From Deltaproteobacteria bacterium (GTDB lineage Bacteria > Desulfobacterota > Binatia > UBA9968 > JAJDTQ01): DNA of 64,000 nt. Made by a program: the position numbers and the translations under genes. Shown here piece by piece: positions 4,829 to 63,580 of this stretch. The notes beneath the pieces are model-generated. The model made no database searches, had not been told where the DNA came from, and was given only the letters and a program-made list of their open reading frames with translations. Position 1 is the stretch's first letter. Each line of letters starts with the position of its first letter. The stretch covers positions 1,413-65,412 of the forward strand of contig JAPOPM010000077.1 in NCBI GenBank assembly GCA_026712905.1, read 5' to 3'.

Positions 4829-4873
4829 GTCCTCGAAGCGGCGGCCGGGACACCCGGTGCCCTGGGCCGCGCT

Positions 4874-5036
4874 AGTGTCGTGTCCCGTAAATTCCTGGCA
4901 TAATTTGCTGGTCTTTTTCGCCGTCGGCTGCGTTGCTCTTCCTCGCGTGGTGCCCGCCACTGCTCGTCATCGCGCCTTGCCGACGACGAAATATCCTGCG
5001 CAACTTATGCCAGGAATTTACGGGACACGACACTAG
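4874..5036. repeat. MITE-like element: 32-bp perfect terminal inverted repeats (CTAGTGTCGTGTCCCGTAAATTCCTGGCATAA) flanking a 99-bp AT-richer core
   Basis: Left arm 4874-4905 is the exact reverse complement of right arm 5005-5036. The proC stop TAG lies inside the right-arm CTAG. Confidence 0.7.
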
Positions 5037-5851
5037 TGCTCGCCTCTCCCCAGGGCTTCCGAACGTTCCGCCGCCTGCAGCACCGCCTCCATGACGGTGG
5101 CACGAAAAGCGCCCTGTTCCAGGGCGAAAAGGCCGGCGGCCGTGGTCCCGGCCGGCGACGTGACGGCATCGCGCAACTCGGCGAGGTGTTCCTTGGATTC
5201 CCGTGCCATGACGGCGGAGCCGTAGACGGTTTGCAGCGCCAGCTTCAGGGCGACGTCCCGGCCGAGTCCCATCTGCACGCCGCCCGCGGTGAGCGCCTCG
5301 ATGAACAGGAAGACGTAGGCGGGGCCGCTGCCGCTCAAGGCGGTCACGGCGTCGAGATGATGCTCCTCCACGGTGACCGCGAGCCCCACGCTCGAAAGGA
5401 TCTGTCCCACCCGATCGAGGTCCTCGCTCCGCGCCCAGCGGCCCCCGGCGTACGCCGAGGCGGCCTCGCCCACGAGACAGGGCGTATTGGGCATGACCCG
5501 GACCACGCGCGTGCCCTCGGGCAGAAGCCCCTCGATACGCGCCAGCGGCACTCCGGCCGCGATGGACACCACCAGCTTGCCGTCCAGCGGGGTGCCGGCC
5601 AGTTCCTGCAACACCGCGTCGATGACCTGGGGCTTGACCGCGAGAATCACGATGTCCGACGAGTTCACCAACTCGACGTTGTCCTGGAGGAACCGGACGC
5701 CTGTTTCGTCGACCAGAGCCTTCCCCAACGCCTCGATGGGATCGCTCGCGGCCAACCGGTTCCGGTCCACCAGACCGGCGCGCAGGATTCCCTGGATGAT
5801 GGCGCTGCCCATCTTGCCGGCGCCGATGAAACCGATCCTGTCCTGGAGCAT
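5033..5851 (-). CDS. proC: pyrroline-5-carboxylate reductase
   Basis: 272 aa. N-terminal Rossmann motif IGFIGAGKMGSAI plus the conserved ProC C-terminal dimerisation region (TSPAGTTAAGL). Confidence 0.9.
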   Translation of the reverse strand: MLQDRIGFIGAGKMGSAIIQGILRAGLVDRNRLAASDPIEALGKALVDETGVRFLQDNVELVNSSDIVILAVKPQVIDAVLQELAGTPLDGKLVVSIAAGVPLARIEGLLPEGTRVVRVMPNTPCLVGEAASAYAGGRWARSEDLDRVGQILSSVGLAVTVEEHHLDAVTALSGSGPAYVFLFIEALTAGGVQMGLGRDVALKLALQTVYGSAVMARESKEHLAELRDAVTSPAGTTAAGLFALEQGAFRATVMEAVLQAAERSEALGRGEH

Positions 5852-19059: not shown

Positions 19060-19160
19060 CCGCCCCGCCTGGATTCCCGCTTCCGCGGGAATGACGTTTC
19101 GGGGGCACCGTTGCCTCGGGAGTATGGACACAGCCGCTTCCGCGGGAATGACGGTGTCGT
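19060..19160. repeat. REP-like palindromic elements (ATTCCCGC-GGAA-GCGGGAAT hairpin family), one full copy and one half copy
   Basis: CCTGGATTCCCGCTTCCGCGGGAATGACG at 19069-19097, partial copy at 19134-19153. Same family as the clusters at 58.2 and 63.4 kb. Confidence 0.8.
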
Positions 19161-20791: not shown

Positions 20792-20827
20792 TGTCCTGTC
20801 TGGTTGATTAACCAGACAGGACACTAG
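20788..20827. terminator. 18-bp-stem palindrome CTAGTGTCCTGTCTGGTT-gatt-AACCAGACAGGACACTAG between nadK and recN (terminator/attenuator or REP)
   Basis: Perfect inverted repeat. The nadK stop TAG is part of the left CTAG. Member of the CTAGTGTC motif family. Confidence 0.5.
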
Positions 20828-20856
20828 CGTGACGCGTCGCACTGGCGGTCGCATCC

Positions 20857-33954: not shown

Positions 33955-34297
33955 CGATGGCGTCCTGTCGTGTCGGGTGAATCGCCAGGATCTCGCTGAA
34001 GCCGCTGATCTTGAACACCTCGGCAATGTGGTCCCGCATGGCGCAGAGGACGATCTTGCGGCCTCCCGCCTGCAGTTGCTTCGCCGCCAGCAGCAACACG
34101 CGCAGCCCGGCGCTGCTGATGTACTCGATATTCTCGAAGTCCACGACGAGCGAGCCCTTGCCTCCCTCGATGAGTTTCAGCAGAGACTCCTGGAACGGGC
34201 TGGCCGTGCTGCCATCGATGCGGCCTGCGGGAATGACGACCGTGGTGTCGCCCTCGGTCTCAGTAGTGAGGTCCAAAACGCTTCCGGTTGCCATCAA
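33944..34297 (-). CDS. STAS-domain anti-sigma-factor antagonist (RsbV/SpoIIAA-like)
   Basis: 117 aa STAS fold. Conserved phosphorylatable Ser in the ..YISSAGLRVL block. Confidence 0.75.
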   Translation of the reverse strand: MMATGSVLDLTTETEGDTTVVIPAGRIDGSTASPFQESLLKLIEGGKGSLVVDFENIEYISSAGLRVLLLAAKQLQAGGRKIVLCAMRDHIAEVFKISGFSEILAIHPTRQDAIDAG

Positions 34298-46846: not shown

Positions 46847-48172
46847 GTTTCAAAGGCTTCCGAAGAACTCCTCCATATCGTGACGCGCAAGATCTTCTAC
46901 GGCTGGTACATCGTCGGCGTCGGCTTCATTTGCTACCTTGGCTCTTCCTTTGCCCTTTCCAGCACCCTCAGCGTCTTTCTCAAGCCCCTGACCACGGAGT
47001 TCGGGATCTCCCGGGGCATGTTCTCGTTCATCCGCAGCGGCGAGGTCATGCTGTCCTCGGTGGTGGCCGCCCTGGTCGGACCCCTCATCGACCGTTACGG
47101 GGCACGCTGGCTCATCATCACGGGCGCGCTGGTGGGAGGGGCGGGCTTCGTCCTGCTGAGCCAGGTGCAACAGTTCTGGCAGTTCATGGTCATACGCTGG
47201 CTACCGGTCACCATGGGCGACACCCTCATCAGCTACATGGTGGTCAACGTGATGATCTCGCGCTGGTTCGTGCGCAGGCGCGGCCGCGCCATCTCCATCG
47301 CCAACACCGGCAACGGCATCGCCAAGTCGACCATGCCGCTCCTCGCCGTGTGGCTCTTCGCGCTGGTGGGGTGGCGCCACACCTGGCTCGTTTTCGGTCT
47401 CCTCACCTGGGCGATGGTCGTGCTGCCCGCGTTCCTGATGGTCCGGCGCAGTCCCGAGGACATGGGGCTTCTGCCGGACGGCGCCTTCGCCCCTTACGAG
47501 CCTTCCCGCGGGCGGACACCGGAACGGCAGAGCCCGCCGGCGCCGTCCGTGGACATCCCGTGGACGCGCAAGGAAGCCGTCCACACCAGCACCTTCTGGC
47601 TGCTGGTCCTCTCCTTCGGCATCGTCAGCGTCGGCATCATCGGGTTGAACCTCCACGTCTATCCCTACATCACGGACATCGGCTACTCGCCCGAGGTGGC
47701 CGCGACGGTCATGGGCATGATGGCCTTGACGCAGATGGGAGCGACGCTGTTCTGGGGCCTCACCGCGGACCGCATCGACGTGCGCAAGGCAGCCTTCGCC
47801 CAATTCGTGGTGCAGGCGTGCGGACTGGGCCTGGCAATGTCCGCCGGGGGCATCACCGCGGTGTACCTGGGGTTCCTCCTGTACGGGTTCGGCCTCGGGG
47901 GAAGCTTGGTGATCCGCGAGCTCCTGTGGGCCAGCTACTTCGGCCGCATCTCGCTAGGGCGGGTGCGCGGACTGGGCTTCCTGATCACGCGCGTGTTCAC
48001 CACCGCCGGCCCCCCCTTCTTCGGCTTTTTCTACGACTACACGGGCAGCTACTTCCTGTCCTTCAGCTCCTTCATCGCCGGCCTGCTGGTCTCGGCGTTC
48101 CTGGTCCTGCTGCTGCGCCCTCCGCGGAAACCCGGATCGGCGCCGGACGCCCCGGACGCGGCAGCACCGTGA
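46847..48172 (+). CDS. MFS transporter (paralog 1 of a tandem array)
   Basis: FYGWYIVG...SSTLSVFLKP...MRRSPEDMGLLPDG family blocks shared with paralogs 3 and 4. Start codon uncertain (GTG 46881 or the upstream TTG). Confidence 0.7.
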   Translation, partial: VSKASEELLHIVTRKIFYGWYIVGVGFICYLGSSFALSSTLSVFLKPLTTEFGISRGMFSFIRSGEVMLSSVVAALVGPLIDRYGARWLIITGALVGGAGFVLLSQVQQFWQFMVIRWLPVTMGDTLISYMVVNVMISRWFVRRRGRAISIANTGNGIAKSTMPLLAVWLFALVGWRHTWLVFGLLTWAMVVLPAFLMVRRSPEDMGLLPDGAFAPYEPSRGRTPERQSPPAPSVDIPWTRKEAVHTSTFWLLVLSFGIVSVGIIGLNLHVYPYITDIGYSPEVAATVMGMMALTQMGATLFWGLTADRIDVRKAAFAQFVVQACGLGLAMSAGGITAVYLGFLLYGFGLGGSLVIRELLWASYFGRISLGRVRGLGFLITRVFTTAGPPFFGFFYDYTGSYFLSFSSFIAGLLVSAFLVLLLRPPRKPGSAPDAPDAAAP

Positions 48173-48180
48173 GAGCCTTC

Positions 48181-49431
48181 ATGCTGCGGAAACCCGACCC
48201 ATCCTGGATCGTCGCAGGCGCCGCCTCATTGACCTTCGGCTTCGTCCGCGGCCTGCACACGTCCTTCGCCGTCTTTTTCGTGGCGCTCCTCGATACGTTC
48301 CAGTGGAGCCGCGGGGTGACCGCCGGGCTTCAGTCCGCGAGCCTGATCATGGATGCCCTGGTGTCGCCCTTCATCGGACGGCTCACCGACCGCCTGGGGC
48401 CGCGGCGGGTCGTGGCCGCGGGCGGCGTCCTCCTGGCTGTGGGCCTGGTCCTCTGCAGCCAGGTGAGCACCCCCTGGGAGCTCTATCTCTACTTCGGGGT
48501 GGTGATGTCGCTGGGGTTCGCGGCCAGCGGCGTGGTGCCCCACGTGCTGGTGGTGGCGGACTGGTTTCCCACGCGCCGGGGACTGGTGCTGGGCATCGTC
48601 TACGGAGCCGTGGGAGTGGGAACCCTCATCCTTTCGCCCCTGAGCCAGTGGCTGATCTCCCTGTGGGGCTGGCCGCGGGTGTTCCAGGCGCTGGCGGCGG
48701 CCATCCTCATCGCCGTGGTGCCGCTGGTGTGGAGCACCTACCGCCCCAGCCCCCACGACGCGCATACGCCGGCGGGAAGCGGCGGCGGCACCCCGGCCGG
48801 CCAGTGGTCGGTGCGCCTGGCGTTGAGGAGCATCCAGTTCTGGAGCCTGTTCATCTCGCGGCTGTTGGGTTCCGTCGGCACGGTGCTGGTCATTACCCAT
48901 CAGGTCGCCCACGTGGTGGACATCGGGTATGGCCACATCTGGGCCGCCGGCGTCTTCGGCGTGATGGCGTTCGTCAGCGCCGCCGGCCGGGTGACCTTCG
49001 GCTACATCGCCGACGCCTTCACCAAGCGGGCGGCCTACACCCTCAACATCGTGTGCGCGGCGGTCGGCGTCACGGCCCTCACCCTGGCCACGGACACGGC
49101 GCAACCTTGGCTGCTTTACGTTTACGTCGGCGGCTTCGGCATCGCCTTCGGCTCCCGCGCCGTGATCCTCTCGGCGATCACCGCCGACATCTTCGCCGGC
49201 CGGGGCTTCGGCACCATCTTCGGCCTCTCGGTGGCGAGCGTGGGATTCGGCGGCGCCACCGGCGCGTGGCTGGGCGGTGCGCTGCACGATCTCACGGGCG
49301 ACTACGCCGCCTCGTTCAACGTCGCCAACGGGCTCCTGATCTCCTCGGTGGTGGCGGTCTGGATCACCGGCCTCGACTGGATGCGCCGTTTCGACCAGCG
49401 ACTGTGGGCGGACAGCCCCCCGGGCACCTGA
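48181..49431 (+). CDS. MFS transporter (paralog 2, distinct subfamily)
   Basis: ATG at 48181, 9 nt after the paralog-1 stop. About 12 TM helices. Confidence 0.75.
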   Translation: MLRKPDPSWIVAGAASLTFGFVRGLHTSFAVFFVALLDTFQWSRGVTAGLQSASLIMDALVSPFIGRLTDRLGPRRVVAAGGVLLAVGLVLCSQVSTPWELYLYFGVVMSLGFAASGVVPHVLVVADWFPTRRGLVLGIVYGAVGVGTLILSPLSQWLISLWGWPRVFQALAAAILIAVVPLVWSTYRPSPHDAHTPAGSGGGTPAGQWSVRLALRSIQFWSLFISRLLGSVGTVLVITHQVAHVVDIGYGHIWAAGVFGVMAFVSAAGRVTFGYIADAFTKRAAYTLNIVCAAVGVTALTLATDTAQPWLLYVYVGGFGIAFGSRAVILSAITADIFAGRGFGTIFGLSVASVGFGGATGAWLGGALHDLTGDYAASFNVANGLLISSVVAVWITGLDWMRRFDQRLWADSPPGT

Positions 49432-49578
49432 AGCGGTGATTGACTCCGGGGAGGCGATTGCCTAGTAAACTCCCTTGAGCCACCCGCGCCCGCGCCGGCC
49501 AATGCCGCATTGGCCACTGCCGCACCGGCCGCTGTCGCACCGGCCATTTCACGCACGCCGAGGAAAGATGCATGCACC

Positions 49579-50892
49579 GTGACCGCTGATTCCACGCATC
49601 CCGCCACGAAACCACGCCTCTTCTATGGCTGGTACATCGTCGGCGCCGGCTTCCTGGCCAACATCTCCTGTGCCTTCTTCCTCTCCAGCACCCTCAGCGT
49701 CTTCCTGAAGCCGATCACCACCGACCTCGGTGTCTCCCGGGGCATTTTCTCCCTCCTGCGTTCGGGCGAACACCTGCTGTACGCCGGCATGGCGCCGTGG
49801 ATCGGGGCCAAGCTCGACCAATACGGACCGCGGCGCATGATGGTCGCCGGCGCGATCCTCTCGGCCATCGGGTTTCTGCTGCTGGGGCAGGTGGGTTCCT
49901 TCTTTCAGTTCGCGTCGGTGCGCCTGACCCTGATGGCCGTGGGCCATGCGCTGGTGTGCTACTTCGTGGTGAACGTCACCGTGGCCCGGTGGTTCGTGCG
50001 CATGCGCGGACGAGCCCTGGCCATCTCCCACCTGGGGCACGGCATCGCCAAGATAGTCATCTCGGCGGTGGTGGGCTGGCTGCTGACGTTCATCGCGTGG
50101 CGCCAGGTATGGACCCTGTTCGGCGCGCTCGTGGTGGTGCTCGCGGTCATCCCGGTGGCGATCCTCATGCGCCGGAGCCCGGAGGACATGGGGCTTCATC
50201 CGGACGGCGCTCCCCCCCGGAAGGCCCCGGGGGCGGCGGGTCGTGTGCAGGAGCGGGCGGCCGGCACCGAGGACGGGCCGGAACCCGAAGTTCGCTGGAC
50301 GCGACGCGAGGTGCGGCGCACGTCCACCTTCTGGTTGATCATCCTGGCATTCGGCATGGTGGACATCGGCATCACCGGTCTCAACCTCCACGTCGTCTCC
50401 TACGTCTCGGACCTGGGATTCGGCGGCGTCCCGGCCGCCCTGACCATGACCGTAATCGCCGGGACGCAAGCGTCCTCCGGACTGCTGTGGGGCTTCGTCG
50501 GCGAGCGCGTCACCGTCCGCAAGGTCGTCTCGTTCCTGTTCCTGGTGGAGGCCGCCGGTCTGTACGTGGCGGCGAACGCGCAGGACCTCTCGACGATCTA
50601 CCTCGGGTTCTTCTTCTACGGATTGGGCCTCGGCGGCGCCCAGGTGCTGGAGGAGGTCATGTGGGCCAACTACTTCGGCCGGGTCTCGCTGGGCACGGTC
50701 CGCGGCGCCGCCCTGCAGATCATCCTGCTGTGCGGCGTCTGCGGCCCGCCGTTCTTCGGTTTCGTGAATGACTACACCGGCTCCTACACGATCTCGTTCT
50801 ACATGTTCATCGGCATGCTGCTGGTCTCGTCGGTGCTCACGCTGACGATACGGAGCCCGCGGCCGCCGGCTGGAGTCGAAGCGGCGGCGTGA
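49579..50892 (+). CDS. MFS transporter (paralog 3)
   Basis: GTG start 11 nt after a GAGGAAAG SD (ATG 49510 is the alternative). Same subfamily as paralogs 1 and 4. Confidence 0.7.
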   Translation: MTADSTHPATKPRLFYGWYIVGAGFLANISCAFFLSSTLSVFLKPITTDLGVSRGIFSLLRSGEHLLYAGMAPWIGAKLDQYGPRRMMVAGAILSAIGFLLLGQVGSFFQFASVRLTLMAVGHALVCYFVVNVTVARWFVRMRGRALAISHLGHGIAKIVISAVVGWLLTFIAWRQVWTLFGALVVVLAVIPVAILMRRSPEDMGLHPDGAPPRKAPGAAGRVQERAAGTEDGPEPEVRWTRREVRRTSTFWLIILAFGMVDIGITGLNLHVVSYVSDLGFGGVPAALTMTVIAGTQASSGLLWGFVGERVTVRKVVSFLFLVEAAGLYVAANAQDLSTIYLGFFFYGLGLGGAQVLEEVMWANYFGRVSLGTVRGAALQIILLCGVCGPPFFGFVNDYTGSYTISFYMFIGMLLVSSVLTLTIRSPRPPAGVEAAA

Positions 50893-52178
50893 GCATGCAG
50901 ACATCGGCCAGACCCAGGGTTTTCTACGGCTGGTACATCGTCGCCACCGGCTTTCTCGTGCAGGTGGCGTGCGCCTTCTACCTCTCCAGCACCCTGGGCG
51001 TCATGCTCAAGGCCATCACCGCCGAGATGCGGGTCTCCCGGGGCACGTTCTCGCTGATGCGCTCCGTCGAGCTGGTGGCCTACGCCGCGGTGACGCCGTG
51101 GATCGGCTCGTTGCTGGACCGCCACGGCGCGCGCCGTCTCATGGTCATCGGCTCGATCATCTCGGTGGCCGGCTTCGTGCTGCTGGGCTACGCCCGGAAC
51201 TTCTGGGAGTTCGCGGCCGTGCGCGTCGCCCTGGTGTCCATCGGTCACGCCTTCGTCTGCTATTTCGTGGTCAACGTCGCCATCTCCCGCTGGTTCATAC
51301 GCCGGCGCGGCCGGGCCCTGGCCATCGCCCACGTCGGCCAGGGCGTTTCCAAGACCACCATCGCCCTCGCCGTCGCCTACCTCATGACGGTCATCGGCTG
51401 GCGTTCGGTGTGGGTGCTTTTCGGCGGGCTCGTGGTGGTCCTCGCGCTGATCCCGGCGGCGCTGTGGATGCGCCGGAGCCCCGAGGACATGGGGCTGCGT
51501 CCCGACGGCGACCCCGACTATGCCGCGGCGCCGGACCGGGGCGCCTCACGGCCCCCTGGCCCGGCCCCCGAGGACGTCACCTGGACCCGCCGGGAAGCCC
51601 TGCACACGCCGACGTTCTGGCTCATCACCTTCATCTTCAGCACCGTCGACATCGGCATCGCCGGCTTCAACCTGCACGTGCTCGCCTACATCTCGGACCT
51701 GGGCCACTCCATGGTGGCGGCGGCATCGGTGGCCACGGTCATGGCCGCCACCCAACTTGGCTCCGGCCTCCTGTGGGGCTTCATCAGCGAGCGGGTCAGC
51801 GTGCGCCGGGCCACGGCGCTCATGTTCGTGGTCCAGGCCGTGGGCCTGGTGGTGGCCATGAACACCGGCGGCCTCATGTGGCTGTACGTCGCCTTCTTCC
51901 TCTACGGCTCCGGCCTCGGCGGCGCCCACGTGCTCCAGGAAGTCATGTGGGCCAACTACTTCGGACGCATCTCCCTCGGCACCGTCCGCGGCCTCAGCCT
52001 CCCCATCCTCCTCCTCTGCGCCGCCATCGGCGCCCCGTTCTTCGGCTACCTCTACGACTACACCGGCAACTACGACCTGTCGCTGGTCCTCTTCATCGCC
52101 GTGCAGGTCATCTGCGCCGGGGTGACGCTGCTGGTGCGAAGGCCGGTGAAGCCGGACTGGGCTCCGGCTGTTTCGTGA
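50889..52178 (+). CDS. MFS transporter (paralog 4)
   Basis: GTGA overlap with paralog 3. MSMQTSARPRVFYGWYIV... Confidence 0.75.
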   Translation: MSMQTSARPRVFYGWYIVATGFLVQVACAFYLSSTLGVMLKAITAEMRVSRGTFSLMRSVELVAYAAVTPWIGSLLDRHGARRLMVIGSIISVAGFVLLGYARNFWEFAAVRVALVSIGHAFVCYFVVNVAISRWFIRRRGRALAIAHVGQGVSKTTIALAVAYLMTVIGWRSVWVLFGGLVVVLALIPAALWMRRSPEDMGLRPDGDPDYAAAPDRGASRPPGPAPEDVTWTRREALHTPTFWLITFIFSTVDIGIAGFNLHVLAYISDLGHSMVAAASVATVMAATQLGSGLLWGFISERVSVRRATALMFVVQAVGLVVAMNTGGLMWLYVAFFLYGSGLGGAHVLQEVMWANYFGRISLGTVRGLSLPILLLCAAIGAPFFGYLYDYTGNYDLSLVLFIAVQVICAGVTLLVRRPVKPDWAPAVS

Positions 52179-55381: not shown

Positions 55382-55812
55382 CTACGGCCAGTAGGTCTTC
55401 CCCTTGCGGTCGGTGACGAACAGCTCGGAAGGAAGTTCGACGCCGATTCCCTGCCTGCGGGCGGCTTCGTAGAGGATGCGGGCGGTGGCGGCGAACTGGA
55501 TGCCCATGCCGGTGTTGTTCTTGAAGACGATGATCTCGTCGTCGTTCTCGCGGCCGCGGCACTGGCCGGTCAGCAGCTCGCCGGGTTCGTGCAGGTCCTC
55601 TTCCTTGATGAGGTCGCGCTCGATGCGGGGGAACAGCGCGGCCTGCTTGTCGAGGAAGACCTGCCTGCGGAAGCCCACCACGATGAGATCGGCGCGCTCG
55701 ATCACGGCGTCGTCCAACTCGTGGCGGGCGAGGTAGCTGTCGCCGCCCACGATGCTGTTGACGAAGGCGCCCTTGTCCAGCCACTCGCCGTTGATGACCG
55801 GGTCCACGGTGT
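55382..55812 (-). pseudogene. 3'-terminal fragment (about 143 codons) of an ornithine cyclodeaminase / mu-crystallin gene, duplicated from 57110-57541
   Basis: About 95% nucleotide identity to the 3' end of the intact gene, including the stop codon. Homology ends abruptly at 55812; the upstream in-frame extension runs antisense into the Sel1 gene. Confidence 0.6.
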
Positions 55813-55950
55813 TGTTCGTGCGGTTGTTCGTCGCTGACGCATTGGACACGGCTGCCGATACCGCAAGGGGAGTCGGTCGACAGTTTGCATCCCTCCCGCA
55901 GGAGGGATGCAAACACAATAGGCATTCACCGAATGTTCGGAAAACCGAGG

Positions 55951-57033
55951 ATGAGAAACGCCATGACCAAACACTTTCGCGTGAAGCATTCATCATCTGT
56001 GACTCTGGGGCTGGGGCTGCTCTGGATCGTCTTGGCCTCCAACTCCGCCGCCGGTCAAACAAGGACCCTACCCCAAGAGACACCGCTCAACGTATGTCTG
56101 GACAACAACAGCGACTGGAGCGCACGGGTAGACGCATGCCGCACAACCGCCGAACAGGGTTTGTCGGAAGCCCAGTACCGCCTCGGCGCCATGTACTTCA
56201 AGGGACGCGGCGTACGGCAGGATGCTGACCAAGCGAGACGTTGGTACCGACTTGCTGCGGAGCAAGGCCACCCGAAAGCACAGTACAATCTCGCGACCAT
56301 GCACGCGTTGGGCCAAGGCATTCCCAAGGACCTTGACACGGCGTTGCGCTGGTACCGATCCGCCGCCGAACAAGGGAATCCGGCCGCGCAGTACAACCTC
56401 GCGACCATGTACGATCGAGGACATGGACCGCAAAAGGATCATGCCGAAGCGCTGCGCTGGTACCACTCGGCAGCCGAACAAGGGTTTCCCTTGGCGCAGA
56501 CCCAACTCGGAACCATGTACCATGCGGGGCGCGGAGTGCCCCAGGACTACGCCGCGGCGCTACGCTGGTACCGCTCGGCAGCCGAACAAGGAGACGCGCG
56601 CGCGCAATACAACCTTGGAACGATGTATGATAAGGCGCACGGCGTGGCCCGAGACTACACCAAGGCCGTTCACTGGTTCCGCATAGCTGCGGAGCAACGA
56701 CACGTCGGCGCGCTATACAACCTCGGTTTGATGCATTCGAAGGGTCACGGGTTACCCGTGGACTATGTCAAGGCCGCCCAATGGTACCGTAAGGCCGCTG
56801 AAGAGGGATTCGCGCTAGCGCAGTTTCAACTTAGTCTTATGTACATTCAAGGACTCGGGGTTGGCCGAGATCTGGCGCTCGCGTACATGTGGCTCGACCT
56901 AGCGGCCGCCGGTGACACGCAGCCCTGGATGGCCGCGCGTGACAAATTAGTGAAGGAAATGGCACCTGAGCAGGTAGCAGAAGCGCGGCGAATGGCACGC
57001 GTATGGTTGACAAGGCGCCAGGGGAACGAATAA
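55951..57033 (+). CDS. Sel1-like repeat (SLR/TPR-family) protein, secreted
   Basis: Signal peptide, then about 9 tandem Sel1 repeats (AQYNLATMY..G.GV..D...A..WYR.AAEQG). Lower GC than flanks. Confidence 0.8.
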   Translation: MRNAMTKHFRVKHSSSVTLGLGLLWIVLASNSAAGQTRTLPQETPLNVCLDNNSDWSARVDACRTTAEQGLSEAQYRLGAMYFKGRGVRQDADQARRWYRLAAEQGHPKAQYNLATMHALGQGIPKDLDTALRWYRSAAEQGNPAAQYNLATMYDRGHGPQKDHAEALRWYHSAAEQGFPLAQTQLGTMYHAGRGVPQDYAAALRWYRSAAEQGDARAQYNLGTMYDKAHGVARDYTKAVHWFRIAAEQRHVGALYNLGLMHSKGHGLPVDYVKAAQWYRKAAEEGFALAQFQLSLMYIQGLGVGRDLALAYMWLDLAAAGDTQPWMAARDKLVKEMAPEQVAEARRMARVWLTRRQGNE

Positions 57034-57109: not shown

Positions 57110-58183
57110 CTACGGCGAGTAGGTCTTCCCCTTGCGATCCGTGACGAACAGCTCGGAAGGAAGTTCGACGCCGATGCCCTGCTTGCGGGCGGCTTCGTAG
57201 AGGATGCGGGCGGTGGCGGCGAACTGGATGCCCATGCCGGTGTTGTTCTTGAAGACGATGATCTCGTCGTCGTTCTCGCGGCCGCGGCACTGGCCGGTCA
57301 GCAGCTCGCCGAGTTCGTGAAGGTCCTCTTCCTTGATGAGGCCACGCTCGATGCGGGGGAACAACTCGGCCTGCTTGTCGAGGAAGACCTGCCTGCGAAA
57401 GCCCACGACGATGAGATCGGCGCGCTCGATCACGGCGTCGTCCAACTCGTGGCGGGCGAGGTAGCTGTCGCCGCCCACGATGCTGTTGACGAAGGCGCCC
57501 TTGTCCAGCCACTCGCCGTTGATGACCGGGTCCACGGTGTTGGTGGCGGCGGTGACGATGTCGCTGCCGCGCACCGCTTCTTCGGCCGAGTGCACCGGCA
57601 CGATCTCGACCCCCGCCTTCTCCGTCATCTCCTCGGCAAACCGTTCCCGGTTGGCCCGGGTGGGGCTGAACACCTTGACCTTGTCGAGCTGGCGCACGGC
57701 GCACGTGGCTAGGAGCTGGGTCTTGGCCTGTTCGCCCGAGCCCACGAGACCCATGACCCGGGCGTCCTTGCGCGCCAGGTGTTTGGCCGCCACGCCGCTG
57801 GTGGCGCCCACGCGGAAGATGGAGATGTAGTGGTCGTCCATGATGGACAACAGCGAGCAGTCTTCCATGTCGAACAGGAAGACGAGGCCCACGTAGTCCC
57901 CGGGGTAGATCCGCCGCTTGGTGCCGGCCACCTCCTCCTCGTCGGAGAAGGTCGAATCGATGCGGAGCCCCATGGACTTCATTCCCGGCACGAGCCCCAT
58001 GATGTTGTTGAAGTAGTACTGGAAGCCGGGCTTCTTACCGGGAGCCTGGACCCGAATCCGCGCGCGGGGTGAGTTGACCGCGGCGCCCTCGCCCATCTCC
58101 CGATATGCCTGCTCGATGGCGTCGATCTCGTCCGCCATCGGCACCAAGTCTTCGAGTTGTTCATTTTTGAGGACTAGAACCAT
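57110..58183 (-). CDS. ornithine cyclodeaminase / mu-crystallin family protein
   Basis: Start MVLVLKNEQ with a GGAGGA SD. Rossmann GLVGSG block and OCD family C-terminus. Confidence 0.8.
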   Translation of the reverse strand: MVLVLKNEQLEDLVPMADEIDAIEQAYREMGEGAAVNSPRARIRVQAPGKKPGFQYYFNNIMGLVPGMKSMGLRIDSTFSDEEEVAGTKRRIYPGDYVGLVFLFDMEDCSLLSIMDDHYISIFRVGATSGVAAKHLARKDARVMGLVGSGEQAKTQLLATCAVRQLDKVKVFSPTRANRERFAEEMTEKAGVEIVPVHSAEEAVRGSDIVTAATNTVDPVINGEWLDKGAFVNSIVGGDSYLARHELDDAVIERADLIVVGFRRQVFLDKQAELFPRIERGLIKEEDLHELGELLTGQCRGRENDDEIIVFKNNTGMGIQFAATARILYEAARKQGIGVELPSELFVTDRKGKTYSP

Positions 58184-58224
58184 TCTTCTCCTCCGGAAGT
58201 CTCGGCTGAACCGTTTCTGTCTCC

Positions 58225-58460
58225 ACCCCTCCTGGATTCCCGCTTCCCAGGCTGTGTCAAGACTGATGAGGCAGAGCCCCATCGAGTCGTCATTCCCGCG
58301 GAAGCGGGAATCCAGGGGCGGTGGTGGGGCATTACAGGGGCGTTCCTCCGTCTCGCCACCCCTGGATTCCCGCTTCCGCGGGAATGACGACTCGGGGGTT
58401 GGTGCCCATTCTTGTCCGGGCGACGTTTTGCCACGGCCGCTTCCGCGGGAATGACGTTTT
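58225..58460. repeat. cluster of 4 REP-like elements (GTCATTCCCGCGGAAGCGGGAATCCAGG family) in alternating orientation
   Basis: Copies near 58231, 58289, 58361 and 58431. Each contains the hairpin ATTCCCGC-GGAA-GCGGGAAT. Read as protein they give SFPRKRESRGG / LDSRFRGNDD, which explains the spurious small ORFs. Confidence 0.8.
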
Positions 58461-58480
58461 CTTGAAACGTCGGCGCAAAC

Positions 58481-60874
58481 TCAGCCGTCGGCCGGCCGTA
58501 CCCTGCAGAGGGACGACCGGTGCGGCAGCGAGCCGCTGATGGGGTCGCGGTGCTCCGCGTCCACGAGCCCGTTGGGGTTGGCACCGAGCTCGCTGAAGGG
58601 ATCGTGGCCCGGAAGCTCCAATTCCCGGCAGGGCTGCCACCAGCCGTGCTGCAGGCACACCACCCCCGGAATGATCCGCGCGGTCAGGTTCGCCCGCACC
58701 TTGACCGCGCCCTTCGGGCTCTCCACCACCATCCATTGCTTGTGCTCGACGCCGTGCTTTTCTGCCGTATCCGGGTGGAGCTCGGCGCTTGGCTCCGGCG
58801 CCGCTTTGCGCAGGCTCGGCAGCGTCCGGTGCTGGCTGTGGACGAACGTCGTGAACTTGGCGTTGGTGAGGACCAGTGGATACTCGGCGGCGACGTCCGG
58901 CCTGCTCGTGGGGCTCACCGCCGGCTCCTGGTATTCCGGCAGCGGCGGGAACCCGTGCCGCGCCATGCGGTGCGAGTAGATCTCCACCCTGCCGGACGGA
59001 TTGTTGAAGCCCTTCGGGCGGCCCTCTCCGTCGGCATCCGCGTATTTCCGGTACCGCCGGGGGCTCTCCAGGGTCACGCCGCCCGGGTGCGCCTTGAGTT
59101 CCCCCAGGGTCATGCCGGTGGGCTCGAGCTGGTAGGCAAAGGCCGCCTCCACGTCGCCGCCCCAGAAATCGTCGGCGAAGCCCATGCGCTTGGCCAGCTC
59201 GAACACCACCCGGGTGTCCGAGCGCCGCTCCGCCAGGGGCTCCACGGCCTTCGGCCGGTACTGGACGTGGGTGCGGGCATCCACGCGGTGGCGGAACCCG
59301 CCGCAGAGGTGATCCATCTCCAGGAAGCTCGTGGCCGGCAGCACGTAGTCGCAGAGCTGGGCCGTGGGCGTCATGAACAACTCGGTGGCCACCCCCAGAT
59401 CCAGGGCGCTCAAGGCGTCCCGACCGCGTGCCGGGTCTCCGTTGGAAAGCACGGTGTTGGAGCCCAGGTTGATCAAGGCCCGGACCGGATACGGTCTGTC
59501 CTCGAGGATGGCGGTGTAGACGTCGTGGGCGGCGCACGCGCCCACGGTTGCCGGCGGACCCAGCGGTTTCTCGTCGCGGCCGATACGCTTGGCCGCGGCC
59601 TCGGCGGGGAGGAACTCCTTGCCGTCCAGCCCGCGAAGCGGCGCCATGGGCAGCATCAGGTTACCCCCGGGCGCGTCGATGTCACCCAGCAACGCGTAGA
59701 GGATGGAAACGGCCCGGCTGGTCTGGCTCGCGTTGGTATGCTGTCCGATGCCGTTCCACATGAACATGCTCACCGGCCGGCTATCGCCGAGGACGCGGGC
59801 CGCCTCGCGGACCTTCTCCGCGGGGACCCGGGTGACGCCCTCGGACCGTTCCGGCGCGTGGGTCGACGCGAGCCGCGCCAGGGCGGCGAACGCCGGCTCG
59901 CACGAATGCGTGGCGCCGTCCCGACCGGTCACGCTGAAGGTTCCCGACAGCGCCGGACGCACGTTGTCTTCCGTAGCCACCGGAGACCTCGGATCGCAGG
60001 CCGCCGCCCGCTCCGACGTCTCGTCCCAGATCATGTAGCGGTCCGGGCTGCCTCCGGCCGCCACGTCCGCCTCGGTCAAAGCCTCTCCGGTGTCCGTGCG
60101 CAGCAGGAACGGGCCGTTCGTCCAGTCGCGCACGAAGGCCTCGTCGTACCGTCCCTCCTCGATCATGACGTGGACGAGGGCCAGGGCCAGCGCCCCGTCG
60201 GCGCCCGGGCGCACCTGCAGCAGGACATCCGCCTGGCTGCCGAGGCCGACCCGGCGCGGATCCACCACGACGATCTTCATGCCGCGCTTGCGCGCGGTGA
60301 CGACGTCCTGGGCCAGCATCAATTGCGTGGAACTCGGGTTGTGGCCCCACAGGAGAAAGGCGCCGCTGTGAAGCACGTCCGGCGACGGCTGCGGCACGCC
60401 GAACGTGTAACTGAACACGGTATCCTTGTGCCAGTTGCAGACGTGGGTGGTGGAGAGAGCGTTGGGACTGCCGATGCGGTTGAGCAGGCGCGTGGACCAT
60501 TGGCTCACGTCGTCCACCGAGGTGCCGCTGGCGGTGCCCCGGGCCATGACGATGGCCTCGGCGCCGTAGCGCTCGCGAATGTTCAGCAGGCGCGCCGCGA
60601 TGTCGTCCAGGGCCTCGTCCCAGCTCACGCGCTGCCAGCCCGGATCCGCCGCTCCCTTGGGGTTGGTGCGCCGCAAGGGATAGTCCAGGCGCTCCCCGTT
60701 GTAGACCAACTCCGGGGCGGCCTTGCCCTTGACGCAGATGGCGCCGCCGTTGGGATGGTCGTAGTCGGGGTCGAGACGCGTCACGCGTCCGTCCTCCACC
60801 GTGGCGACGGTGGCGCAGTGGGCGGTGCACAGCACACAATAGCCCCGGACCTTCTCGATTTGTGGTTCCGTCAC
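58481..60874 (-). CDS. molybdopterin-dependent oxidoreductase (DMSO-reductase/formate-dehydrogenase superfamily catalytic subunit) with N-terminal 4Fe-4S motif
   Basis: GTG start 5 nt after AGGAG (VTEPQIEKVRGYCVLCTAHC = C-x2-C-x3-C). Molybdopterin oxidoreductase and molydop-binding domains. Confidence 0.75.
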   Translation of the reverse strand: MTEPQIEKVRGYCVLCTAHCATVATVEDGRVTRLDPDYDHPNGGAICVKGKAAPELVYNGERLDYPLRRTNPKGAADPGWQRVSWDEALDDIAARLLNIRERYGAEAIVMARGTASGTSVDDVSQWSTRLLNRIGSPNALSTTHVCNWHKDTVFSYTFGVPQPSPDVLHSGAFLLWGHNPSSTQLMLAQDVVTARKRGMKIVVVDPRRVGLGSQADVLLQVRPGADGALALALVHVMIEEGRYDEAFVRDWTNGPFLLRTDTGEALTEADVAAGGSPDRYMIWDETSERAAACDPRSPVATEDNVRPALSGTFSVTGRDGATHSCEPAFAALARLASTHAPERSEGVTRVPAEKVREAARVLGDSRPVSMFMWNGIGQHTNASQTSRAVSILYALLGDIDAPGGNLMLPMAPLRGLDGKEFLPAEAAAKRIGRDEKPLGPPATVGACAAHDVYTAILEDRPYPVRALINLGSNTVLSNGDPARGRDALSALDLGVATELFMTPTAQLCDYVLPATSFLEMDHLCGGFRHRVDARTHVQYRPKAVEPLAERRSDTRVVFELAKRMGFADDFWGGDVEAAFAYQLEPTGMTLGELKAHPGGVTLESPRRYRKYADADGEGRPKGFNNPSGRVEIYSHRMARHGFPPLPEYQEPAVSPTSRPDVAAEYPLVLTNAKFTTFVHSQHRTLPSLRKAAPEPSAELHPDTAEKHGVEHKQWMVVESPKGAVKVRANLTARIIPGVVCLQHGWWQPCRELELPGHDPFSELGANPNGLVDAEHRDPISGSLPHRSSLCRVRPADG

Positions 60875-63339: not shown

Positions 63340-63580
63340 TCGAGTCGTCATTCCCGCGGAAGCGGGAATCCAGGTGGGGTGCGGGGGAAATTCGCCGGTC
63401 CGACCCCTCTCCACCCCTGGATTCCCGCTTCCGCGGGAATGACGGTTCGGGGCGTGGTATCATGTTCGTCGCCGAGCGGAGTTCTGACACGGCTGTTTCG
63501 CGGGGATGACGTTCCGTGACGTGGTTGCGTCGGGAGTTCTGACGCCGGCTGTTCCGCGGGAATGACGAGGGGTTGGCGGG
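63340..63580. repeat. cluster of REP-like elements (same ATTCCCGC-GGAA-GCGGGAAT family plus degenerate half-copies)
   Basis: Forward copy at 63345-63374, inverted copy at 63414-63445, degenerate half-copies near 63490 and 63550 (GACACGGCTGTTTCGCGGGGATGACG). Confidence 0.75.

What the first reader, a model, noticed from the sequence alone, without database searches (positions are those of the whole stretch)
58225..58460. REP/dRS3-like palindromic repeat family ATTCCCGC-GGAA-GCGGGAAT clustered at three intergenic sites
The unit GTCATTCCCGCGGAAGCGGGAATCCAGG (8-bp stem, GGAA tetraloop) occurs as alternating-orientation arrays at 58225-58460 (4 copies), 63340-63580 (2 full copies plus degenerate half-copies) and 19060-19160 (1.5 copies). 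All are intergenic and sit just downstream of genes: the XDH subunit, the OCD-to-Mo-enzyme junction, and radC-moaC. The ATTCCC-N8-GGGAAT architecture is formally the same as neisserial dRS3 repeats, an analogy only. Such elements commonly act as terminators or mRNA stabilisers, as binding sites, or as recombination hot spots. They generate the spurious SFPRKRESR / LDSRFRGNDD peptides seen in several track ORFs.
Basis: seen in the sequence. Interest (0 to 1): 0.55.

Follow-up and report, generated by a model that had tools for sequence, protein, structure and literature searches.

The report
CGTC-tagged REP hairpin repeats (dRS3/NTS type)
The flagged palindromes are real copies of a known, very widespread bacterial hairpin repeat, the family that includes Neisseria dRS3/NTS and is cut by small GIY-YIG 'Ssn' nucleases, found here in an uncultured Binatia bacterium and built into larger nested hairpins, so this is a new host and arrangement of a known element.

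Summary
The window has five identical 28-mers, CGTCATTCCCGCGGAAGCGGGAATCCAG, plus five half or degenerate units, at three intergenic sites (0.02 matches expected by chance).

The unit has every defining feature of the CGTC-1 REP family of Di Nocera 2013, to which that paper assigns Neisseria dRS3. It matches the 28-nt Neisseria NTS consensus at 27 of 28 positions. The dRS3 link is therefore family membership, not just analogy.

The family is dispersed. Two more doublets lie on the same contig just outside the window. Close Binatia relatives (88-92% identical DNA) carry copies on at least 6-9 contigs each. The exact 20-mer occurs in more than 120 stretches of genomes from many phyla.

Stem changes are almost always compensatory (89 of 102 two-mismatch copies), so a hairpin is under constraint.

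In Binatia the units sit in a roughly 230-nt nested palindrome that recurs at unrelated loci and shows presence/absence differences between relatives.

In other lineages the same repeat brackets a small GIY-YIG (Ssn-type) gene in 8 of 9 cases. RAYT genes are not associated. No Ssn gene was found in the window or in about 300 kb of Binatia-like DNA, so the partner enzyme here is inferred, not shown.

Verdict: new member of a known kind; modest interest.

The parts
58236..58247 (.). Left outer half-unit of the site-2 composite: first stem arm ATTCCCGC plus loop TTCC, preceded by a CCTGG tail-type flank.
   Evidence: Sequence. It aligns with the left end of full composites in relatives. It pairs with 58445-58452 in the centroid DNA fold.
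58248..58287 (.). Left arm of the composite (CAGGCTGTGTCAAGACT...CCCCATCGAGT), an imperfect inverted copy of the right arm.
   Evidence: Conserved in 10 copies from Binatia-like loci. The arm motif was found only in Binatia-like loci.
58288..58316 (+). Complete REP unit, tag strand +: CGTC / ATTCCCGC / GGAA / GCGGGAAT / CCAGG.
   Evidence: DNA hairpin -9.0 kcal/mol, z -4.1.
58317..58360 (.). Variable G/C-rich spacer between the two units of the head-to-head doublet.
   Evidence: Only 28 of 44 positions identical to the orthologous spacer in L182, against 28 of 29 for each adjacent unit.
58361..58389 (-). Complete REP unit, tag strand -. With 58288-58316 it forms a doublet with the CGTC tags outside (39-nt arms, 97% complementary).
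   Evidence: (I7). Doublet DNA fold -55.1 kcal/mol, z -12.3.
58390..58440 (.). Right arm of the composite (ACTCGGGGGTTGGTGCC...TTTTGCCACGGCCGC).
   Evidence: (D9).
58441..58456 (.). Right outer half-unit: loop TTCC, second stem arm GCGGGAAT and GACG tag.
63346..63374 (+). Complete REP unit (site 3), tag strand +.
63416..63444 (-). Complete REP unit (site 3), tag strand -. It forms a doublet with 63346-63374 (49-nt arms, 86% complementary).
   Evidence: (I2). Doublet fold -50 kcal/mol, z -8.9.
63445..63511 (.). Degenerate right arm plus half-unit (GCGGGGATGACG at 63500-63511).
63512..63567 (.). Second right arm plus half-unit (GCGGGAATGACG at 63556-63567).
   Evidence: (D9).
19068..19096 (-). 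Complete REP unit (site 1), tag strand -, 22 nt after the stop codon of the XDH-family gene.
19097..19153 (.). Right arm plus half-unit (GCGGGAATGACG at 19142-19153). This is a composite lacking the left arm and the + unit.
   Evidence: (D9).

Best explanation
These are CGTC-1-type repetitive extragenic palindromes, the family that contains Neisseria dRS3/NTS and the 'Ssn-related motifs'. The host is an uncultured Binatia bacterium.

The functional unit is a 28-29-nt single-strand hairpin: an unpaired CGTC tag, an 8-bp stem, a GGAA loop and an unpaired CCAGG tail. Units are mostly paired with their tags outward. In this lineage a pair is further wrapped in about 50-nt inverted arms and the two separated halves of another unit. 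The result is a roughly 230-nt nested hairpin that behaves as a non-coding, MITE-like module.

Most likely mechanism (inferred): the repeats are the non-autonomous relatives of a small selfish or domesticated cassette, repeat - GIY-YIG nuclease gene (ssn) - inverted repeat. The nuclease binds the hairpin in single-stranded DNA and cuts beside the CGTC tag. Copies are spread or kept uniform through that interaction, and arrays then change by recombination, insertion and deletion.

Because copies survive mainly downstream of genes, they are co-transcribed. As very stable RNA hairpins they probably also affect 3'-end stability of the upstream mRNA, as a side effect.

Shown here: family identity, hairpin constraint, dispersal, turnover between relatives, and the bracketing of GIY-YIG genes by this same repeat in other lineages.
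Not shown here: an ssn gene in this genome, cleavage, mobility, or any RNA effect.
For: Family features:
- CGTC tag, 8-bp stem starting AT, 4-nt loop and CCA tail in 5 of 5 units.
- Across 101 non-redundant copies from Binatia-like loci, the unpaired flanks are as conserved as the stem: CGTC 90-98%, the C after the stem 97%, CAGG 88-93%. These are the positions PMC11893778 reports as critical for SsnA cleavage and binding.
- Each unit matches the NTS consensus at 27 of 28 positions.

Hairpin constraint:
- 89 of 102 copies with two stem mismatches are Watson-Crick compensatory within one pair, against 2.3 expected.

Selective retention:
- Orthologous units in the window and L182 are 114 of 116 identical. 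Their spacers are 57 of 85 identical. Flanking genes are 88-91% identical.

Dispersal and turnover:
- Two further doublets lie on the same contig outside the window.
- Composites are present in L166 where the window has only 3-17 bp.
- Orthologous arrays differ by large indels.

Partner gene:
- 9 GIY-YIG ORFs (PF01541) were found among 361 repeat-containing loci. Eight of the nine are bracketed by units on both sides. In six of those, two recognisable units with tags outward lie 307-347 nt apart.
- That is the same frame as the short doublets, which dominate adjacent pairs: 143 +/- against 30 -/+, 21 +/+ and 20 -/-.

Literature:
- PMC3733652 defines CGTC-1 and equates it with dRS3.
- PMC11893778 shows that SsnA cuts NTS only as ssDNA and that NTS-ssnA-NTS is widespread.
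Against: - No GIY-YIG/Ssn ORF is in the 64-kb window, in the 4 kb beyond it, or in about 300 kb of Binatia-like loci. None of the top 120 hits of two Ssn protein searches was labelled Binatia. The nuclease may therefore be absent from this lineage.
- The strict SRM search pattern of PMC11893778 does not match the GGAA-loop unit, which has G where the pattern needs H.
- Copies of the composite at different loci are only 75-89% identical, so there is no sign of a very recent burst.
- No target-site duplication or precise empty site could be defined.
- The loci used for conservation statistics were selected by exact matches to the core, which inflates the apparent conservation of at least one copy per locus.
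Confidence: 0.7

Rival explanations
1. The repeats are kept mainly for an RNA-level host function. Transcribed with the upstream gene, the very stable hairpins block 3'-5' exonucleases, act as processing sites or attenuate read-through. This would set the relative expression of the Mo-enzyme and OCD genes, and of moaC and radC. It does not exclude the main explanation.
For: All five sites on the contig lie just after a gene 3' end, between co-directional or convergent genes and never between divergent genes. In Binatia-like loci the composite sits between co-directional genes in 25 of 32 scored hits. That count is inflated, because both arms of one composite can score. The RNA fold of the transcribed strand of site 2 is -140 kcal/mol, z -9.5. 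PMC3733652 reports the same placement for CGTC-1 repeats and argues for RNA function. REP-dependent mRNA stabilisation in E. coli is established knowledge.
Against: No T/U run follows any hairpin, and the terminator scan found nothing. An RNA hairpin does not explain near-invariant unpaired CGTC and CCAGG flanks, or the identity of the 20-28-mer across phyla. Single stem mismatches show no strand bias towards G-U: 11 on the tag strand, 7 on the other, 9 of other types. No Rfam family matches.
Confidence: 0.25
2. They are REPINs mobilised by a REP-associated tyrosine transposase (RAYT), as proposed for Pseudomonas, E. coli and, by Bertels and Rainey (bioRxiv 10.1101/2021.07.10.451892), for the Neisseria ATTCCCGCGCAGGCGGGAATC doublets.
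For: The inverted doublets with a short spacer fold into one long hairpin, which is the REPIN layout. The bioRxiv paper links Neisseria doublets of this family with a Group 2 RAYT.
Against: The tag is CGTC, not the GTAG typical of RAYT-linked REPs. PMC3733652 found no CGTC repeats flanking any tyrosine transposase gene. A RAYT query that detected a clear homologue in L331 (E 1e-94) found none in the window and none next to a repeat in 361 loci. The L331 gene is about 10 kb from the repeat.
Confidence: 0.08
3. [quoted passage not shown] They would then act as recombination hot spots that reshuffle neighbouring genes.
For: dRS3 is a documented phage integration target, and NIME arrays are dynamic between strains (PMC1797815; PMC11893778). 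Arrays here differ by large indels between relatives. Extra modules are inserted inside or beside units in relatives.
Against: I did not see a recombinase gene, prophage or IS next to any of the three sites, but the window was not fully annotated for IS110-type genes. Flanking genes are syntenic and 88-92% identical between relatives, with no rearrangement at the arrays.
Confidence: 0.1
4. It is a chance palindrome or a purely local duplication with no family behind it.
For: Only three sites lie inside the 64-kb window.
Against: 0.02 matches are expected by chance. Identical units occur elsewhere on the contig, at non-orthologous loci in relatives and across phyla.
Confidence: 0.01

Closest known systems
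CGTC-1 REP family (Di Nocera, De Gregorio & Rocco 2013, BMC Genomics 14:522, PMC3733652)
   Same: Unpaired CGTC tag, 8-bp stem beginning AT, 4-nt loop, CCA tail. Doublets with the tags outside predominate. Placement is just downstream of genes, between co-directional or convergent ORFs. No adjacent transposase.
   Different: The host phylum (Binatota) is not among the five phyla listed there. Units here are embedded in a conserved, roughly 230-nt nested palindrome with split outer half-units. That paper reports only one loosely comparable case: H. neapolitanus dimers inside 41-bp palindromes.
Neisseria dRS3 / NTS repeats and NIME arrays (PMC1797815; PMC11893778)
   Same: Same stem (ATTCCCGC/GCGGGAAT) and the same CGTC and CCAG flanks, with 27 of 28 identity to the NTS consensus. 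Repeats are interleaved with other short repeat modules in intergenic mosaics that vary between relatives.
   Different: The loop is GGAA rather than GMAV. Arrays are small (1-2 doublets), not long NIME arrays. The interleaved modules (arms) are lineage-specific. No link to competence, DUS or surface-protein genes is evident.
Ssn-related motifs with GIY-YIG Ssn nucleases (Nat Commun 2025, PMC11893778)
   Same: The repeat-gene-inverted repeat cassette was recovered independently here around 8 of 9 GIY-YIG ORFs in loci chosen only for the repeat. The positions critical for SsnA binding and cutting are the most conserved unpaired bases in the Binatia copies.
   Different: No ssn gene has been found for this lineage so far. 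The published strict SRM pattern misses the GGAA-loop variant.
REPIN/RAYT systems and E. coli BIMEs
   Same: Short palindromes in inverted doublets that fold as one hairpin, dispersed in intergenic DNA, with a proposed single-copy enzyme partner. Mosaic combinations with other motifs also occur.
   Different: A different tag (CGTC, not GTAG), a different enzyme superfamily for the associated gene (GIY-YIG, not HUH/Y1), and no RAYT detected.

Membership tests
CGTC-1 REP family | Unpaired CGTC (or TGTC/CCTC) tag at one end of the palindrome | tested here: met
   CGTC in 5 of 5 full units. 90-98% per position in 101 Binatia-like copies.
CGTC-1 REP family | 8-bp stem with A and T at positions 1-2, and a 4-nt loop | tested here: met
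   ATTCCCGC / GGAA / GCGGGAAT. Folds as predicted.
CGTC-1 REP family | Short unpaired tail fitting CCA | tested here: met
   CCAGG follows all five units, 91-97% per position in 101 copies.
CGTC-1 REP family | Dimers with the tags outside (HH) predominate | tested here: met
   Both window doublets and both extra doublets on the contig are HH. Across all loci, 143 HH against 30, 21 and 20 for the other arrangements.
CGTC-1 REP family | Intergenic, near 3' ends, between co-directional or convergent ORFs | tested here: met
   5 of 5 sites on the contig.
CGTC-1 REP family | Many dispersed copies per genome | tested here: inconclusive
   Only about 68 kb of this genome could be read, with 5 sites. 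Relatives at 88-92% DNA identity carry copies on at least 9, 7 and 6 contigs in a truncated scan. No whole-genome count was possible.
Neisseria dRS3 / NTS | dRS3 pattern ATTCCC-N8-GGGAAT | tested here: met
   Five exact matches.
Neisseria dRS3 / NTS | NTS consensus CGTCATTCCCGCGMAVGCGGGAATCYRG (the authors allowed one mismatch) | tested here: met
   No exact match. All five units match with exactly one mismatch, G at the M position.
Neisseria NIME arrays | Long arrays of RS elements each flanked by dRS3 | tested here: not met
   Window arrays have only 1-2 full units plus half-units. The arms are repeated modules, but there are no long regular arrays.
Ssn / Ssn-related motif system | Strict SRM pattern HGTCWYN(0-2)YYVSBRHN(0-5)WNVSBRGN(0-2)RNCYNB | tested here: not met
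   No unit matches, because the first loop base is G where H is required. The only window hit is a chance match in coding DNA.
Ssn / Ssn-related motif system | A single-domain GIY-YIG (cd10448-type) ssn gene in the same genome, typically bracketed by the motif | tested here: inconclusive
   None in the window, in L001 or in about 300 kb of Binatia-like loci. In other lineages with the same 20-mer, 8 of 9 GIY-YIG ORFs are bracketed.
Ssn / Ssn-related motif system | Cleavage of the motif as single-stranded DNA only | not testable with these tools
   Needs biochemistry.
REPIN / RAYT | GTAG tag and a RAYT gene flanked by the repeat | tested here: not met
   The tag is CGTC. No RAYT in the window. 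The single RAYT among 361 loci lies about 10 kb from the repeat.
Intrinsic (Rho-independent) terminator | GC-rich hairpin followed by a T run | tested here: not met
   0 terminator-like sites in 57900-58800. No T run follows the units.

The most novel reading that the evidence does not exclude
The Binatia composite may be more than a passive mosaic. It could be a distinct non-autonomous element that inserts into, or is generated at, the hairpin of an existing unit.

Observations that fit this:
- The outer halves are the two arms of one unit, separated by about 190 nt. In several copies the 4-nt loop is present at both junctions.
- Other small palindromes (CCCCGATCGGGG...) and an AT-rich module are also found inside units or right after CGTCATT, in Binatia and next to a Nitrospira ssn gene.

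If so, these nested structures record how CGTC/NTS repeats proliferate, through hairpin-targeted insertion or hairpin-primed copying. That is an open question, because no transposase is known for the family. A related possibility is that Binatia maintains the repeats without any Ssn gene.
Probability: 0.15. Interest if true: 0.55.

Novelty: new member of a known kind. Interest (0 to 1): 0.3.

Why it matters
For annotation:
- These repeats generate spurious ORFs containing peptides such as SFPRKRESR and LDSRFRGNDD. They should be masked in Binatia and many other MAGs.
- The published strict SRM pattern misses the GGAA-loop variant, which is common in environmental genomes. Published counts of Ssn-related motifs may therefore be underestimates.

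For biology:
- The finding extends a repeat best known from Neisseria to a candidate phylum without cultured members.
- The same 20-28-mer and a 73-80% identical nuclease family span many phyla, which fits a horizontally moving repeat-nuclease cassette.
- The nested composites and their presence/absence differences between near relatives are usable material for working out how this transposase-less repeat family spreads.

Tried and rejected
1. Hammerhead ribozyme. The left arm contains CTGATGAG, but a permissive Rfam scan of 58150-58550 gave no ribozyme hit. It gave only sub-threshold miRNA-precursor and sRNA models that score any long hairpin. The whole window at gathering thresholds gave only a tRNA.

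2. Intrinsic terminators. None found.

3. RAYT.

4. Finding the Binatia ssn gene:
   - jackhmmer over all six-frame ORFs of 361 loci;
   - a metagenome scan with the 29-mer to enrich for Binatia contigs;
   - two protein database searches seeded with Ssn proteins from L329 and L298.
   The seeds turned out to belong to alphaproteobacterial-type and Nitrospira groups, and no hit was labelled Binatia. The question stays open.

5. Precise insertion boundaries or target-site duplications, from filled sites in L166 or L182 against empty sites in the window. The differences include flanking non-repeat DNA and are not clean.

6. Orientation of the composite relative to transcription. The arm motif matches both arms because they are inverted copies, so orientation could not be scored this way.

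7. G-U strand asymmetry as a test of RNA against DNA function. Not informative.

8. IS110/Piv-type recombinase genes were not searched for specifically.

Full report
**1. The observation**

Reading the three sites and a pattern search confirm the repeat. ATTCCCGC-N4-GCGGGAAT occurs perfectly five times, at 19073, 58292, 58366, 63350 and 63421. Shuffled sequence gives 0.02 matches on average, even with two mismatches allowed. With flanks, all five are the same 28-mer, CGTCATTCCCGCGGAAGCGGGAATCCAG.

The 'half copies' are real too. GCGGGAATGACG, preceded by a TTCC-like loop, lies at 19142-19153, 58445-58456 and 63556-63567. A degenerate one lies at 63500-63511. A left half, ATTCCCGC-TTCC, lies at 58236-58247. 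So 58225-58460 holds two complete units and the two separated halves of a third, not four full copies.

Pfam places the sites as follows:
- Site 1: between an XDH-family Mo-binding subunit and a convergent nitroreductase.
- Site 2: between a molybdopterin oxidoreductase and ornithine cyclodeaminase, both on the minus strand.
- Site 3: between moaC and radC, both on the minus strand.

**2. Source organism and dispersal**

The window is 100% identical to an ENA metagenome contig of 79 kb (L001). It is 92% identical over 7 kb to a contig of a Candidatus Binatia MAG (L166). It is 88-91% identical over 6.6 kb to a MAG labelled Syntrophobacterales (L182), which carries the same lineage-specific arm motif.

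The part of L001 that extends 4 kb beyond the window holds two more doublets, at L001 421-514 and 2843-2935. The first lies between two co-directional histidine-pathway genes (IGPD, GATase). The second lies between a His_biosynth-family gene and a convergent Pyr_redox_2 gene.

Even so, it returned 9, 7 and 6 different contigs from three Binatia-type MAGs. It also returned hits in Alpha-, Beta- and Gammaproteobacteria, Chloroflexota, Planctomycetota, Nitrospirota, Acidobacteriota, Actinomycetota, Patescibacteria and others. Of the 120 stretches, 62 also carry CGTC before the 20-mer and CC after it.

**3. Anatomy**

Each unit folds as an 8-bp hairpin with a GGAA loop (-9 kcal/mol as DNA, z about -4).

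Units at sites 2 and 3 form inverted doublets with the CGTC tags outside. These fold as single long hairpins (-55 and -50 kcal/mol, z -12 and -9).

Site 2 as a whole is a nested palindrome of about 230 nt, in this order:
- outer half-unit
- left arm, about 40 nt
- + unit
- spacer
- - unit
- right arm, about 50 nt
- outer half-unit

It folds at -78.9 kcal/mol as DNA (z -8.9), and the centroid structure pairs the two outer halves.

The same composite, 75-89% identical, occurs at unrelated loci in the Binatia relatives. Sites 1 and 3 of the window are truncated or partly duplicated versions of it. The arm motif was found only in Binatia-like loci.

**4. Evidence of constraint and turnover**

Stem pairing:
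- Among non-redundant copies in all fetched loci, 102 have two stem mismatches. In 89 of these, the two changes are a Watson-Crick compensatory pair (2.3 expected).
- Copies with one mismatch are rarer, at 29.
- Pairing is therefore maintained.

Flank conservation:
- In 101 Binatia-like copies the unpaired flanks are about as conserved as the stem. A plain RNA hairpin would not require that.
- Caveat: each locus was selected through an exact core match.

Orthologous comparison:
- Units in the window and L182 are 114 of 116 identical. Their spacers are 57 of 85 identical. The flanking genes are 88-91% identical.

Turnover:
- L166 has full composites where the window has only 3-17 bp between genes.
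- The orthologous arrays of L182 differ from the window by loss or gain of arms and by an AT-rich module.
- The boundaries are not clean, so no target duplication could be defined.

**5. What is known about this repeat**

Di Nocera et al. 2013 (PMC3733652) define CGTC-tagged REPs. Family CGTC-1 has:
- an 8-bp stem beginning AT, a 4-nt loop and a CCA tail;
- mostly HH dimers, meaning tags outside;
- a position close to the 3' ends of co-directional or convergent ORFs;
- no associated transposase.

They state that Neisseria dRS3 are CGTC-1 elements. Every one of these features is met here.

The 2025 Ssn paper (PMC11893778) extends dRS3 to the 28-nt NTS, CGTCATTCCCGCGMAVGCGGGAATCYRG. It shows three things:
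- A small GIY-YIG protein, SsnA, binds and cuts NTS only as single-stranded DNA.
- The bases before the palindrome matter for cutting, and the C after it matters for binding.
- NTS-ssnA-NTS cassettes are widespread.

The window units match NTS with one mismatch. They fail that paper's strict degenerate SRM pattern at the same base.

**6. Independent check of the gene association**

The loci were fetched only because they contain the repeat. Six-frame ORFs from them were searched with GIY-YIG and RAYT queries. The results were:
- Nine GIY-YIG ORFs were found (PF01541).
- Eight of the nine are bracketed on both sides by units. In six of those, two recognisable units with tags outward lie 307-347 nt apart, while the gene itself lies in either orientation.
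- That frame is the same as in the short doublets, which are the dominant arrangement (143 of 214 close pairs). The doublets look like the cassette without its gene.
- Only one RAYT was found, about 10 kb from a repeat.
- Ssn-type proteins are very abundant, with more than 7,500 clusters, and are 73-80% identical across named phyla.

**7. What remains unproven**

No GIY-YIG ORF lies in the window, in L001 or in about 300 kb of Binatia-like DNA. Two protein searches did not surface a Binatia-labelled homologue. Whole Binatia genomes could not be searched.

The Ssn mechanism is therefore an inference from family membership and from the conservation of the bases that SsnA reads. It has not been demonstrated for this genome.

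An RNA-level effect on the upstream transcripts is plausible, given the placement and the -140 kcal/mol RNA fold. But there is no U-tract, and an RNA role would not explain the flank conservation. A role as a recombinase target, as for Neisseria phage integration (PMC1797815), was not excluded.

**8. Verdict**

It is a new host-lineage member of the known CGTC-1 / dRS3-NTS / Ssn-related repeat family.

The lineage-specific nested composite and its turnover are the only new features. They are mildly interesting as clues to how this family spreads.

Interest 0.3.

Noticed in passing
window 55382-55814 and 57110-57542: A 433-bp direct duplication (97% identical) of the 3' part of the ornithine cyclodeaminase gene flanks a Sel1-repeat gene (55885-57033, seven 36-aa repeats, 108-nt period). 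The surrounding 52-58 kb region has lower G+C (0.58-0.63, against about 0.67 elsewhere). This looks like an insertion that duplicated part of OCD and left a truncated OCD copy.
   Followed up: partly
window 4869-4908 / 5000-5039; related sequence at 20807-20850: A 40-nt inverted repeat, 95% complementary with 91 nt between the arms (GCGCTAGTGTCGTGTCCCGTAAATTCCTGGCATAATTTGC), lies in an intergenic gap. A partly similar sequence lies 16 kb away. It is unrelated to the CGTC repeat and could be another small mobile or regulatory element.
   Followed up: no
L182 916-985 and 6131-6210; L166 about 1040-1110; also L130, L171, L174, L228, L241: A conserved AT-rich module of about 60-80 nt (GATATGAAAATA-A-TCTTGT-CAATGA...) begins right after CGTCATT. 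It sits just 5' of the + unit in composites of Binatia relatives, within roughly 67% G+C genomes. It is absent from the window. It may be an insertion into the tagged end of a unit.
   Followed up: partly
L166 1182-1235, L126 1631-1690, L360 1700-1760, L298 2966-3017: These are units whose loop is expanded by the same nested palindrome (ATTCCCGC-CCCCGATCGGGGTCGRGGG...-GCGGGAAT). The variant occurs in Binatia-like loci, and also directly upstream of an ssn gene on L298. That gene's closest named protein relatives are from Nitrospira.
   Followed up: partly
window 34227-34238: An isolated half-unit, GCGGGAATGACG, lies inside an apparent coding region with no partner arm. It is either chance or a relic of an intragenic repeat.
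   Followed up: no
window 46895-52034: Three tandem paralogous MFS-transporter genes (63-75% DNA identity between copies) lie upstream of the S9 peptidase gene.
   Followed up: no
proteins P0001-P0240: Single-domain GIY-YIG (Ssn-type) proteins of about 95 aa are 73-80% identical between organisms labelled Nitrospira, Rubrobacteraceae, Thermoanaerobaculia, TA06, Competibacteraceae and Alphaproteobacteria. That is unusually high for cross-phylum comparisons and suggests frequent horizontal transfer of the cassette. Many database entries are 114-150 aa long; in L298 the ORF reads on through the flanking repeat, so these may be ORFs that run into the repeats.
   Followed up: partly
L126 and L218: Contigs binned as Gemmatimonadetes carry the Binatia-type repeat, including the arm motif in L126. 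They come from the same study as the Binatia MAGs, so mis-binning is possible.
   Followed up: no
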